A stretch of DNA of 64,000 nucleotides from Nitrospira japonica (lineage in GTDB: Bacteria; Nitrospirota; Thermodesulfovibrionia; Thermodesulfovibrionales; SM23-35): positions 32,001-96,000 of the forward strand of contig DYFC01000054.1 of NCBI GenBank assembly GCA_020725385.1. Reading direction: 5' to 3'. The stretch's first letter is position 1. Every line of letters begins with the position of its first letter. The notes below the pieces were generated by a model. That model ran no database searches. It was not told where the DNA came from and saw only the letters and a program-made list of their open reading frames with translations. The translations under genes and the position numbers were made by a program. This document shows positions 57,373 through 59,584 of this stretch, piece by piece.

Positions 57373-59584
57373 CCCAGAAGTGTTCTTTATAATCCTCTGC
57401 CAATCCTGGATATGCTTCTGTTTGTGCTTCTGTAACTCCTGGCATCATCCTTGCCAACGCTGCATAAATCTTGATAATCCTAATATGTTCGTTATTTAAT
57501 TGAATAAATCTCGGACAGATAAATATAGTTGCGGGCAATAACCATCTGCAAAATCTATTGCCGGCACATGCAGCGTCAGAGTCAGGCACACAAAATATAT
57601 TTAATTGGTGTTCGAAATTATCGCCCATCTGTCTGTATCTGTCATAAATACCAGCCATTGCTGCACGGTCTCCTCTCCCGAACCATCTGAAAAAATATGG
57701 CCTCATATGATTTTCATTATTTGTATTTCCATATGTCTGTCCGATGCCAAAAATAGCATATGTGTTCCATCTCTCAGCCCAAGCAACTGCCTTTCTTACC
57801 TTTTCTTCATTAGGTCCCATACCGGCTGTGACGCTGGGATCGCATCCTGCTACTACATCCTCGACAGTAGGTCCTATATGGGATGGGTGCTGGTTTTGGA
57901 TTAACTCAAAGACAAAACGAGTGAGACTTTGAGCATTATCAATTGCCTGATCACGTGTAAGAAAAACGAATACTCTTTCACGTTCGTATGCACGATCATG
58001 AACTTCATATCTTGAGCCATGAGCTGATTCATGTACAATAACTTCTTCTTTGCCACTACCAGTGAAAAAAACTGGGCATACTATTAAGTTTTCTGGATTC
58101 GCAGCAGCCCAGCCACCTGCACGACAAGTTGGATCTTCATCATCAGCGCATTTAAGGATTGTTGTTAGTAAATTCGGCTGAGTTAAAAAATCACTCATAG
58201 CTTGAAGTCTATTTCTAACTTCTAGTGCAGTTGCAGCACTATGATCATTTGCAAAATTGTTGTCCAATGCTATCCTCACATTATTTTGTGGGTCAGTCTG
58301 CATAGATGGATTTCCTCTGTATGTATCTAATCGATGAACTGCATCATTTAGCATTGGCACAACCCTATCACGTACTTGGCGTACTATATCCTGTCTTGTC
58401 TGATCACAAGGTTGTATATGAGAACCTGTTGAACCTGTTCTGTTTGAAGCTTGGCTGTCAGGCTTCATTTCTACAGAACGCCAGAAGCGGTAATCAATCT
58501 GTCCAGAACTTTTATGTAATAGAGGCACATGATATATGATTCCATCATATCCTTCATCTATAATAAGGTTGGCAACAGCCTCTATGCGTTTCTCAGCCAA
58601 GAGATGGTTATATGTACGGTTACCTTCTTCGGAAGCATAACCATATAAGTTTATATCCTGTACCCCGCTTGAAGCCATTCTGCGTGAAAATCTTCTGGCT
58701 TTTTCTGCTTCAATAGGATCTAAATCATTTTCAGGGGAAGAATTATAAAGTCCTGGTTTATCAAAATCAAAAAAAACATCATCAGGATAATTATCGCGAT
58801 TTTCATATAATCCTGTAACTCTAAAGGATTCTGGAGTAGTCCTTTGTAATATATTACTATTACTCGAATCTTGCTGCATCACATGAGTTAGTTCATGCGC
58901 CAGAAGATATTTTCCCGAGGCTGTGTATGGTTGATATTGCCCTGTGCCAAATACAATATCATTTCCAACAGTAAATGCAAGAGCACTTACCGAATCCGCA
59001 AGAGAGGATGCTTTTGCATCAGTATGTATTCTTACATTGGTGAAATTATGATTAAAACGAGGTTCAAAGTATTTGCGTATTTGTGTCGACAAAGGATTGC
59101 CTCCACCTCTTATTTCATTAATGCGGCATTCTACATCAGTGGAAATTTCAGGGTTATCATCAGAATATGCTTTTAATAATGAATTTGTTATTAAGGGTTT
59201 TAATTTAATTTCTTCTTCATCCCCGCACGAGAGACCTTTTGCAAAAGGTCAAGTCGGTTTCATCTGGATTCCGGGCTCCGGCATCCGCATAACCATATCG
59301 GCCACCCTGTCTGCCTCTTGTTCATAAATATCATAGGATCGGCTAATTTTGAGTTTTGTATGTATCCCTAGCCTTATGCCCTGTCCCCTGAACCCCATAC
59401 CCTGAACCCTATACCCTGTACCCCTTAAGATCTTTCCCGCTGCCTGATTACCAATTGTCTTATGTAAAAATAAGATTTGGTCAACAGGCGAATTTATAGT
59501 CTTAGAGAATTCAGTCTTTCGTGTTTGAGAAATTGAGTTCTCTTTCTTTGATTCAAGTTCTTTTATTTTAGTTTTCTCATTCAT
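57359..59584 (-). CDS. eCIS DUF4157 effector (leader, DUF4157, OmpA-like, M35 peptidase, degenerate M35) with one in-frame UGA at 59249-59251
   Basis: ORFs 59249..59584 and 57359..59092 share a frame and the 52 intervening codons are open. Motifs: EQEADRVAD.VMRMP, FEPRF...VRIHTD...AFTVG.DIVF...LLAHELTHVMQQ, VFFDFD...GYAS.EG...LAEKR, HESAH. Confidence 0.8.
59375..59424. repeat. Heptamer tandem repeat in the effector leader
   Basis: ...gccctgt-cccctga-accccat-accctga-accctat-accctgt; encodes GTGYRVQGMGFRGQG. Confidence 0.75.

What the first reader, a model, noticed from the sequence alone, without database searches (positions are those of the whole stretch)
59215..59260. Single in-frame UGA with downstream hairpins in an eCIS DUF4157 effector: candidate selenoprotein or programmed readthrough
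Seen: the 111-aa ORF (59584-59249) and the 577-aa ORF (59092-57359) are in the same frame. Reading through TGA (59251-59249) gives ...MPEPGIQMKPT-[UGA]-PFAKGLSCGDEEEIKLKP...IRGGGNPLSTQIRKYFEPRF..., an intact ~741-residue protein with no other lesion. The downstream ORF has only a TTG start that cuts the GGGxPL start of DUF4157. An 18-nt perfect palindrome (GACCTTTTGCAAAAGGTC, 59233-59250) begins inside the stop codon. An alternative small hairpin (UCUC-GUGC-GGGG) has a GU-starting apical loop ~20 nt after the UGA. Known: this linker in DUF4157 proteins is often Cys-rich (QRKC..C...CEEE), bacterial SECIS elements have a G/GU apical loop roughly 16-37 nt after UGA, and UGA-C is a readthrough-prone context. 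Inference: the UGA encodes Sec (a U-x7-C motif) or is a programmed readthrough yielding a short leader-only protein plus a full-length toxin. Either would be an unusual control of eCIS cargo.
Basis: partly seen in the sequence, partly recalled or inferred. Interest (0 to 1): 0.88.

Follow-up and report, generated by a model that had tools for sequence, protein, structure and literature searches.

The report
Selenocysteine codon in eCIS cargo gene
An apparent stop codon inside a toxin-cargo gene of a phage-tail-like injection system is most likely read as the rare amino acid selenocysteine, and the same arrangement recurs in dozens of related genes from several bacterial phyla, which points to a selenoprotein family that the lists I could search do not contain.

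Summary
Window 59584-57359 (-) is one frame with a single TGA at 59251-59249. The eCIS_core/DUF4157 domain lies after the TGA and has no usable start of its own.

The TGA is neither a lesion nor an error. I collected 54 distinct homologues with TGA at the same codon, from relatives, titled MAGs of at least six major lineages, and metagenomes. Of the 45 with 150 or more codons after the TGA, 44 carry an intact eCIS_core domain. Other homologues have Cys at exactly that residue, in a C-x7-C motif.

A 5-bp hairpin with a CGUGY loop starts 16 or 19 nt after the UGA. It is conserved, covaries, and constrains synonymous sites. It fits the published bacterial SECIS model and resembles the SECIS of this genome's own fdhA. 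The genome has tRNA-Sec, selA, two selB and Sec-type fdhA. selD is missing from the assembly.

Verdict: selenocysteine (U-x7-C), about 0.88. I found no published description. The function of the Sec is inferred only.

The parts
57359..59584 (-). Whole cargo gene: 741 codons plus TAA, with one in-frame TGA. Order: N-terminal loading-type region, Sec, acidic linker, eCIS_core (DUF4157), weak OmpA-like stretch, Aspzincin_M35-like domain.
   Evidence: BLASTP gives a single HSP across the TGA to the natural Cys-form P0103 (residues 1-248, E 4e-60).
59252..59584 (-). N-terminal 111 codons, with the motifs ILFLHKTIGNQA and YEQEADRVADMVMRMPEP. This is also the product if the UGA terminates.
   Evidence: Of 77 short database proteins like it, 45 end at the same (K/Q/N)(P/S)(T/G/A) position. 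In AlgoCIS cargo the N-terminal region is the loading sequence (bioRxiv 10.64898/2026.05.27.728243, passages read).
59249..59251 (-). In-frame TGA, proposed selenocysteine codon (residue 112).
   Evidence: TGA sits at the same codon in 54 distinct homologues. Cys is aligned there in P0099, P0103, P0086, P0121, P0076 and P0104. TGA is otherwise a normal stop in this genome, closing 219 of 1056 long frames.
59220..59234 (-). SECIS-like hairpin. Stem 59234-59230 pairs with 59224-59220. Loop CGUGC is at 59229-59225 and holds the Cys-120 codon (59227-59225). The loop starts 19 nt after the UGA.
   Evidence: RNAalifold predicts it on 54 sequences. 89.9% of cells pair, against 49.7-61.0% when slid; the covariation score is 0.342 and 0 of 500 shuffles reach it. 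Loop position 2 is G at a synonymous site in 48 of 49 cases, against a 29.9% background. The window's own copy is weak at -3.4 kcal/mol.
59233..59250 (-). 18-nt palindrome that begins inside the TGA. It is specific to the window and a few homologues and is not a conserved element.
58865..59095 (-). eCIS_core (DUF4157) domain with HExxH (AHELTHVMQQ).
   Evidence: PF13699, 102.3 bits. The domain is found after the TGA in 44 of 45 homologues, and HExxH is invariant.
59092..59094 (-). TTG that gene callers use as the start of a truncated 577-aa ORF. This is an annotation artefact.
   Evidence: The protein collection holds this truncated form as P0094, which begins MSTQIRKYF.
57914..58246 (-). Aspzincin_M35-like C-terminal domain, the putative effector part.
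   Evidence: PF14521, 37 bits against a cut-off of 30.

Best explanation
The TGA at 59251-59249 is a selenocysteine codon. SelB with Sec-tRNA(Sec) is recruited by a small hairpin. This hairpin is a 5-bp G+C-rich stem with a pentaloop C-G-U-G-Y, and its loop starts 19 nt after the UGA (16 nt in some homologues). The ribosome therefore makes a 741-residue eCIS cargo protein with a U-x7-C motif. The motif lies at the junction between the N-terminal loading-type region and the DUF4157 (HExxH) domain.

Shown here:
- the in-frame TGA is conserved;
- Sec and Cys alternate at the same column;
- both protein-level and RNA-level constraint begin right after the UGA;
- most of the Sec machinery is present.

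Inferred:
- Sec is actually inserted.
- Termination at the UGA competes with insertion, so a 111-residue leader-only peptide is a by-product and full-length cargo depends on selenium supply.
- The selenol, alone or with Cys-120, acts as a redox-sensitive or metal-binding group. Three Sec forms have no Cys within 14 residues after the Sec, so the Sec itself would be the key residue.
For: 1. Conservation of the TGA.
- TGA is at the same codon in two tandem genes of G025, and, in a variant form (GPT-TGA-MEEEC), in two genes of G024. Both genomes belong to other genera of the same family.
- A DNA pattern built only from the codons upstream plus TGA hit 16 sites in 13 genome-contig loci. All 16 were DUF4157 leaders with a frame still open after the TGA: 15 run 219-809 codons and one reaches the end of the fetched locus after 56 codons.
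- The same pattern ending in TGH gave 50 sites in metagenomes, 44 of them in the family: 41 TGA and 3 TGY.
- In all I have 54 distinct TGA forms. 53 stay open and one stops after 13 codons.

2. Translation continues past the TGA.
- 44 of the 45 frames with 150 or more codons after the TGA carry PF13699, and HExxH is invariant.
- Codons +1 to +4 show coding periodicity: third-position entropy is 1.69 bits, against 1.24 and 1.12 at positions 1 and 2.

3. Sec/Cys pair.
- Six full-length natural homologues have Cys at the aligned residue, in a C-x7-C motif.
- BLASTP aligns X112 with Cys of P0103 within one HSP.

4. SECIS-like hairpin.
- RNAalifold finds the hairpin on its own.
- Pair 21-29 is CG in 44 rows, UA in 7 and AU in 1. 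89.9% of cells pair, against at most 61% when slid. 0 of 500 shuffles reach the covariation score.
- Third codon positions inside the hairpin are as conserved as first and second positions (0.71 bits, against 0.79 and 0.50).
- Loop position 2 is G in 48 of 49 fourfold-degenerate codons, against 29.9% elsewhere in the same ORFs.
- Geometry fits the published bacterial SECIS model: 3-9 nt loop, stem of at least 4 bp, G in the first two loop positions, 16-37 nt spacing (PMC13188914, Fig. 2 legend, passage read).
- This genome's own Sec-type fdhA has a 5-bp stem and a GGUCU loop starting 18 nt after its UGA. I read this off the sequence printed; the MFE fold printed there pairs this stretch differently.

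5. Sec machinery.
- The genome has tRNA-SeC(tca), selA at 628.5 bits, two selB over cut-off, and fdhA with one in-frame TGA at 874.5 bits.
- Of 13 genomes with TGA forms, 10 have selA and 2 more have selB.

6. TGA is an ordinary stop here. A reassigned genetic code is therefore excluded.
Against: - selD was not found in this assembly. The best score was 69.1 bits against a cut-off of 125. It is present in 24 of the 26 genomes searched, G000 among them, and the assembly is 96.6% complete in 71 contigs.
- One MAG with a TGA form (G065) showed neither selA nor selB over cut-off.
- The hairpin is short. Alone it has a median of -6.05 kcal/mol, and only 13 of 54 reach the model's -7.5. The window's own copy is -3.4 with three G-U pairs.
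- No Rfam family matches.
- The hairpin overlaps conserved codons (P-S-C-G), so part of its conservation comes from the protein.
- The one Cys form with a C-x7-C motif for which I have DNA (L054) keeps the same hairpin sequence.
- There is no RNA, proteomic or selenium-labelling evidence.
- The AlphaFold2 model of a natural Cys form gives the C-x7-C stretch a pLDDT of only 48-57. The proposed role of the Sec therefore has no structural support.
Confidence: 0.88

Rival explanations
1. Programmed readthrough without selenocysteine. A near-cognate tRNA (Trp, Cys or Arg) reads the UGA at low frequency, stimulated by the downstream hairpin. The result is a leader-only peptide plus a minor full-length cargo.
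For: C follows the UGA in 36 of 54 forms. By my recollection, not checked in any call, that context is readthrough-prone. One homologue has Trp at the site (P0058). selD is missing from the assembly. G065 shows neither selA nor selB over cut-off.
Against: The aligned residue in sense-codon homologues is Cys in 6 of 9 cases, which is the hallmark of Sec sites. The hairpin has the loop G-U, the size and the spacing of bacterial SECIS elements and of this genome's fdhA. 18 of 54 forms lack the UGA-C context. 12 of 13 carrier genomes have selA or selB.
Confidence: 0.06
2. Two separate genes. The UGA is a true stop, and the DUF4157 part is translated on its own by re-initiation at a downstream start.
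For: Gene callers split it this way (P0094 and P0123). In G024 an ATG directly follows the TGA.
Against: In the window the first in-frame start after the TGA is a TTG inside the domain. Amino-acid conservation and codon periodicity begin at the first codon after the TGA. Natural Cys forms are single proteins that align continuously across the site.
Confidence: 0.03
3. A nonsense pseudogene or a sequencing or assembly error.
For: Taken alone, a single in-frame stop is what a fresh lesion looks like. One related copy (L044, identical to L057) has a second stop 13 codons later.
Against: TGA is at the same codon in 54 distinct sequences from many lineages. The downstream domain is intact in 44 of 45. 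Contigs of four runs from four studies cover the codon, and for X3 every difference is listed with none in the codon.
Confidence: 0.02

Closest known systems
Bacterial SelB/SECIS-dependent selenoprotein genes, for example the Sec-type formate dehydrogenase alpha subunit of the same genome (G000:C27:32861-34909)
   Same: An in-frame UGA is followed at 16-19 nt by a short G+C-rich stem. The stem is capped by a pentaloop with G-U at positions 2-3. Cys-containing homologues exist. tRNA-Sec, selA and selB are present in the genome.
   Different: The Sec is not in the active site of a known oxidoreductase. It lies in the N-terminal, largely non-globular region of an injected-cargo protein. The hairpin is at the short, weak end of the published model. 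No Rfam model and no NCBIfam model covers it. Within this motif subfamily the Sec form outnumbers the Cys form, 41 to 3 in one metagenome scan.
DUF4157 / eCIS_core ('PVC-metallopeptidase') cargo proteins of extracellular contractile injection systems, for example AlgoCIS Cgo1/Cgo2
   Same: The architecture matches: N-terminal region, then DUF4157 with HExxH, then a variable C-terminal effector domain. The gene sits at the 3' end of an eCIS operon that holds AAA ATPase, sheath, tube, hub, gp25 and Baseplate_J genes. Sources: PMC8213781 and bioRxiv 10.64898/2026.05.27.728243, passages read.
   Different: The passages I read in those papers do not mention any in-frame UGA or selenium. Here the gene can give full-length cargo only by recoding.
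Natural Cys-form homologues (P0103, P0086, P0099, P0121, P0076, P0104)
   Same: They share the leader motifs, the C-x7-C motif followed by an acidic run, and the DUF4157 domain. P0103 is 41% identical over 267 alignment columns spanning residues 1-248 of P0001.
   Different: They have Cys where the window has TGA, so they are annotated as whole proteins.
Cysteine switch of zinc-metalloprotease zymogens (matrix metalloproteinase motif PRCGxPD; recalled, not from any call)
   Same: A P-x-C-G motif lies upstream of an HExxH domain. This suggests the idea that a thiolate or selenolate could latch the catalytic zinc.
   Different: This is a resemblance only. AlphaFold2 places the motif with low confidence. 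No metal or contact could be tested. The MMP-like Cys is the partner Cys, not the Sec.

Membership tests
Bacterial selenoprotein gene (SelB/SECIS-dependent UGA recoding) | In-frame UGA conserved among homologues, with a conserved coding frame on both sides | tested here: met
   There are 54 distinct TGA forms, and PF13699 lies downstream in 44 of 45. Coding periodicity is seen directly after the UGA.
Bacterial selenoprotein gene (SelB/SECIS-dependent UGA recoding) | Homologues with Cys aligned to the UGA | tested here: met
   Six Cys forms are among the 120 listed homologues. The other sense-codon forms with the motif are 1 Trp, 1 Tyr and 1 Leu. BLASTP aligns X112 with Cys.
Bacterial selenoprotein gene (SelB/SECIS-dependent UGA recoding) | Stem-loop after the UGA that fits the bSECIS model: 3-9 nt loop, stem of at least 4 bp, G in the first two loop positions, 16-37 nt spacing, MFE at or below -7.5 kcal/mol (PMC13188914, Fig. 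2 legend) | tested here: inconclusive
   Loop, stem, G and spacing are all met. There is covariation and constraint at synonymous sites. The energy criterion is met by the hairpin alone in only 13 of 54, and the window's copy is -3.4. It is met by the whole UGA..+48 fold in 52 of 54, but that fold is not always the same structure.
Bacterial selenoprotein gene (SelB/SECIS-dependent UGA recoding) | selA, selB, selC and selD in the genome | tested here: inconclusive
   selC, selA, two selB and a Sec-type fdhA are present. selD is not in the assembly, although 24 of the 26 genomes searched (G000 included) have it.
Bacterial selenoprotein gene (SelB/SECIS-dependent UGA recoding) | Selenium demonstrably incorporated at the UGA | not testable with these tools
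   This needs 75Se labelling or mass spectrometry.
Rfam SECIS families | Covariance-model match | tested here: not met
   Only chance-level matches to unrelated families, all with E above 3.
DUF4157 / eCIS_core cargo (eCIS-associated toxin) | PF13699 domain with HExxH, encoded at the 3' end of an eCIS operon | tested here: met
   PF13699 scores 102.3 bits. Upstream lie Tail_P2_I, two Baseplate_J, gp25, GPD, two tube, sheath and AAA genes.
DUF4157 / eCIS_core cargo (eCIS-associated toxin) | Loaded into the particle and delivered to a target | not testable with these tools
Reassigned genetic code (TGA = Trp or Gly) | TGA not used as a stop across the genome | tested here: not met
   TGA closes 219 of 1056 open frames of 300 or more codons. 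The only tRNA with a UCA anticodon is typed SeC.

The most novel reading that the evidence does not exclude
The selenocysteine works as a 'selenocysteine switch' and a supply gate for an injected toxin. Full-length cargo is made only when selenium and SelB allow recoding. The selenolate, alone or as a selenenylsulfide with Cys-120, latches the HExxH zinc site of the DUF4157 domain, or locks the loading region, until a redox change outside the producer or inside the target releases it. The leader-only termination product is co-loaded or competes for loading. This would be the first selenoprotein in any secretion or injection system, and it would give DUF4157 a regulatory chemistry.
Probability: 0.15. 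Interest if true: 0.88.

Novelty: new member of a known kind. Interest (0 to 1): 0.72.

Why it matters
- **Annotation.** These cargo genes are currently split into a leader-only ORF and a truncated domain ORF (P0123 and P0094; 45 of 77 short database relatives end at this codon). eCIS toxin catalogues therefore miss or truncate a whole subfamily.
- **Selenium biology.** Most known bacterial selenoproteins are redox enzymes. A Sec in the loading or linker region of an injected effector, with Sec forms outnumbering Cys forms in this subfamily, would widen what selenium is used for.
- **eCIS biology.** The role of DUF4157 is still open according to the passages I read. A conserved, chemically special residue just upstream of it gives a concrete handle for testing maturation, latency or loading.

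Tried and rejected
- Rfam scan of 59050-59400 at E up to 10: only chance hits, no SECIS family.
- NCBIfam scan of the read-through protein and its two halves: only weak OmpA-like hits, no selenoprotein model.
- The TGH pattern in viral contigs: 0 loci.
- AlphaFold2 of the natural Cys form P0086 with 66 aligned homologues. Mean pLDDT was 57.5. The DUF4157 core scored 91-97 and the helix YEQEADRV... 86-87, but the C-x7-C stretch only 48-57. This gives no structural clue to the role of the motif.
- Foldseek of that model against the PDB: nothing with E below 1.
- I did not run complex prediction, because the report claims no protein-protein binding.
- The look-up of sequencing runs listed no RNA holder, so nothing can be said on expression.
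- Read laying works on contigs only. Its table left 8 differences unshown. Only for X3 could I account for every difference.
- selD search of the own genome: nothing over cut-off.
- Literature searches. 'DUF4157' with 'selenocysteine' gave 0 papers. 'selenoprotein' with 'contractile injection' gave 0 papers. The 2026 review PMC13188914 (passages found by term search) has no PF13699, eCIS, metallopeptidase, peptidase, toxin or effector entry. In deep-Sep PMC12013277 (passages), none of the six new families named in the passages shown matches, and the terms metallopeptidase, metalloprotease, peptidase and toxin do not occur in its text.
- I saw BSepDB (PMC13326102) only in a search listing.
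Full report
**1. The observation**

On the minus strand, window 59584-57359 is a single reading frame of 741 sense codons. 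It is broken only by TGA at 59251-59249.
- Pfam places eCIS_core (PF13699, formerly DUF4157; 102.3 bits) at residues 52-128 after the TGA. The TTG 'start' is residue 53 and truncates the domain.
- An Aspzincin_M35-like domain (37 bits, cut-off 30) and a sub-threshold OmpA-like stretch follow.
- The 18-nt palindrome (59250-59233) and the small hairpin are both present.

The gene lies at the 3' end of an eCIS operon. Tail_P2_I is in the window. Further upstream on the same contig lie two Baseplate_J genes, gp25, a GPD hub, a second Cys-rich DUF4157 gene without a TGA, two tube genes, a sheath and an AAA ATPase.

**2. The TGA is conserved, not a lesion**

- A six-frame search of 60 relatives found two tandem genes in G025 (another genus of the same family) that match residues 74-243, each with one TGA inside.
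- Translation shows ...VQPKPT*SFSQVPSCGDED and ...IQPKPT*AGSSPSCKEED, both with TGA.
- G024 has two genes with LQRKKGPT-TGA-MEEEC.
- I then scanned all species genomes with a degenerate pattern made only of upstream codons plus TGA. This gave 13 loci and 16 sites. All 16 are YEQEADR...MRMPEP..Q..P. leaders. After the TGA, 15 frames run on for 219-809 codons and one reaches the end of the fetched locus after 56 codons.
- These records are titled Nitrospiraceae/Nitrospirota, Desulfobacterales, Desulfobacteraceae, Desulfobulbia, Deferribacteres, Clostridia, NC10 and Anaerolineales, plus one uncultured bacterium.
- The same pattern ending in TGH (TGA, TGC or TGT) gave 50 sites in 47 metagenome contigs: 45 TGA and 5 TGY. 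Six sites are not family members (four TGA, two TGT). That leaves 41 TGA forms against 3 Cys forms.
- Further paralogues on the same contigs that the pattern had missed brought the total to 54 distinct TGA forms. Of these, 53 have no stop in the next 40 codons or before the contig end, and one stops after 13 codons.
- Several contigs carry two or three Sec-type cargo genes in tandem.
- In the protein collection, 45 of 77 short relatives of the 111-aa leader end exactly at (K/Q/N)(P/S)(T/G/A). One of these is the window's own. Gene callers therefore routinely cut these genes at this codon.

**3. Translation continues through the TGA**

- Of the 45 TGA forms with at least 150 codons after the TGA, 44 have PF13699 at E of 1e-5 or better. 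H, E and H of HExxH are invariant.
- Codons +1 to +4 after the UGA and codons +11 to +16 show the usual coding pattern. Third positions are most variable: 1.69 and 1.70 bits, against 1.1-1.3 at positions 1 and 2.
- BLASTP aligns the read-through protein with the natural protein P0103 in one HSP covering residues 1-248 (41% identity, E 4e-60). X112 lies opposite Cys.

**4. Sec/Cys pair**

Among the 120 best full-length homologues, nine carry the same motif with a sense codon at the TGA position:
- Cys in six: P0099, P0103, P0086, P0121, P0076 and P0104. An example is KPT-C-PFTNDSS-C-GDEE.
- Trp in one (P0058), Tyr in one (P0059), Leu in one (P0111).

Many others have the commoner QRKCxxCEEE linker or no Cys at all.

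In the 54 TGA forms the spacing to the next Cys is x7 in 36, x6 in 8 and x4 in 7. Three have no Cys within 14 residues.

**5. A conserved SECIS-like hairpin**

I aligned UGA..+48 of the 54 forms as alignment A1.
- RNAalifold predicts one helix, columns 18-22 with 28-32, around the loop in columns 23-27.
- Counted on the 6-pair version, 89.9% of cells pair, against 49.7-61.0% when the partner is slid. The covariation score is 0.342 against 0.228 in shuffles (0 of 500 reach it). 13 cells change on both sides.
- Pair 21-29 is CG in 44 rows, UA in 7 and AU in 1. Pair 22-28 is UG in 24, UA in 14 and CG in 13.
- In pair 21-29 the covariation links the third, synonymous base of the Pro codon to the middle base of the codon after Cys: GGG with CCC, GAG or AAG with CCU, AUG with CCA. 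Protein conservation cannot explain that.
- Inside the hairpin, third codon positions are as conserved as the others (0.71 bits).
- Loop position 2 is the third base of a Ser, Pro or Ala codon. It is G in 48 of 49 cases, against 29.9% of 4898 such codons elsewhere in the same ORFs. The sequences are related, so the binomial p-value overstates this.
- The loop is CGUGC in 33 rows, CGUGU in 10, and another G-containing pentaloop in 10. Only one row lacks the G.
- The loop starts 19 nt after the UGA in 45 rows and 16 nt after it in 9.
- Forms that lost the partner Cys (PSGG) or moved it (U-x4-C...CPQVEE) keep a hairpin at the same distance.
- This fits the published bacterial SECIS model in loop size, stem length, loop G and spacing (PMC13188914, Fig. 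2 legend read).
- The genome's own Sec-type fdhA (HCARY-U-HSS) has a 5-bp stem with a GGUCU loop starting 18 nt after its UGA. I read this off the sequence printed; the MFE fold printed there pairs this stretch differently.
- Weak points. The hairpin alone is modest, with a median of -6.05 kcal/mol. The window's copy is -3.4, and only 13 of 54 reach -7.5.
- The one Cys form with a C-x7-C motif for which I hold DNA (L054) still has the hairpin sequence. A proper Cys-form control is therefore missing.

**6. Sec machinery**

- The genome (2.46 Mb, 71 contigs, 96.6% complete) has one tRNA-SeC with anticodon tca.
- It has selA at 628.5 bits and two selB genes over cut-off.
- It has an fdhA with one in-frame TGA at 874.5 bits, plus a second molybdopterin enzyme with an in-frame TGA.
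- selD is not found. 24 of the 26 genomes searched (G000 among them) have it. 23 of those best matches carry one in-frame TGA, so SelD is itself a selenoprotein in this clade. Only this genome and one same-genus relative lack it. An assembly gap is the likeliest reason, but this is not shown.
- Of 13 genomes with TGA forms (G000, G024, G025 and ten MAGs), 10 have selA. Two of the other three have selB over cut-off, and one has neither.
- TGA closes 219 of 1056 long frames in this genome, so the code is standard.

**7. Sequence reliability**

Contigs of four runs from four studies cover the codon.
- Three of them are 90-99% alike, with dozens of substitutions elsewhere.
- For X3, all 25 differences are listed and none is in the codon.
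- For X1, X4 and X6, at least one difference each was not shown.
- X3, X4 and X6 carry 126 nt in place of the 24 nt just upstream of the TGA. This longer linker is also seen in database leaders such as ...SIQMKPG.

**8. What it is and how it probably works**

The evidence meets the criteria used in the field for a new bacterial selenoprotein gene: a conserved in-frame UGA, Cys homologues, a SECIS-like element, and a Sec-using host.

I conclude with about 0.88 confidence that the UGA encodes Sec. The product would be a U-x7-C motif between the loading-type N-terminal region and the DUF4157 domain.

By the abstract of PMC4513850, which I saw only in a search listing, Sec recoding in E. coli is 30-40% efficient and competes with RF2. 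A leader-only 111-aa peptide is therefore an expected by-product, and full-length cargo should depend on selenium. This step is inferred.

In AlgoCIS, the N-terminal region of DUF4157 cargo is required for loading, while DUF4157 itself is dispensable for it (bioRxiv 10.64898/2026.05.27.728243, passages read). Geller et al. left the role of DUF4157 open, listing loading, release, maturation, trafficking or immunity as possibilities (PMC8213781, passages read).

What the selenol does is unknown. It could act as a redox latch, a zinc ligand in the manner of a cysteine switch, or something else. The AlphaFold2 model of a Cys form does not place the motif confidently.

**9. Novelty**

- I found no paper that joins DUF4157 or eCIS with selenocysteine.
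- The family table of the 2026 review has no such entry.
- NCBIfam release 20 has no model for it.
- Supplements are closed and I did not read the BSepDB paper, so a listing there cannot be excluded.
- The recoding mechanism and the protein family are each known. The combination appears to be a new selenoprotein family.

Noticed in passing
G000:C15:21101-22957 and G000:C52:14715-16565 (outside the window): Two selB genes are both over the curated cut-off (384.2 and 358.1 bits), but only one tRNA-SeC was found. The C52 copy lies about 11 kb from selA.
   Followed up: no
G000 whole assembly; relatives G001-G046: selD is absent from this assembly and from one same-genus genome (G005). It is present in 24 of the 26 genomes searched, and 23 of those best matches carry one in-frame TGA.
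   Followed up: partly
window 56041-57372 (-): The next gene (443 aa) starts with a similar leader (ILFLQKTIGNKAIQRLL). It lacks the YEQEADR motif and DUF4157, and has an Aspzincin_M35-like stretch just under cut-off (29.4 bits against 30). It is probably a second cargo.
   Followed up: no
window 55099-56028 (-): A glycosyl hydrolase 46 (chitosanase-type) domain is fused to a peptidoglycan-binding domain, directly downstream of the two cargo genes.
   Followed up: no
window 59253-59276 and 59398: Related strains in three other studies carry 126 nt in place of 24 nt just upstream of the TGA. One of them has a 21-nt insertion in the Gly-rich repeat region of the leader. The leader varies in length while the TGA and what follows are kept.
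   Followed up: partly
L022 (G024:C1), two genes: A second type of TGA form lacks the YEQEADR leader: LQRKKGPT-TGA-MEEECRRRR. An ATG directly follows the TGA. A different G+C-rich hairpin (UGCCGC/GCGGCA, loop AGGAG) starts about 18 nt after the UGA; I read this off the printed sequence.
   Followed up: partly
L041 (+7077), beside two Sec forms: A third tandem paralogue reads ...VVQAAPT-REEDTLQTKP. The short stretch that holds the Sec and its partner Cys appears to be deleted cleanly.
   Followed up: no
P0058 and P0161 (same 104,423-bp contig, source name Candidatus Brocadia sp.): One paralogue has Trp at the site (KPG-W-PFSKGPACGEEE). A second predicted protein ends exactly at ...IQTKPG, so it presumably has a stop there.
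   Followed up: no
window 59577-59584: The ATG of the cargo gene overlaps the TGA stop of the upstream 532-aa ORF, which has no Pfam match (ATGAATGA). This suggests translational coupling.
   Followed up: no
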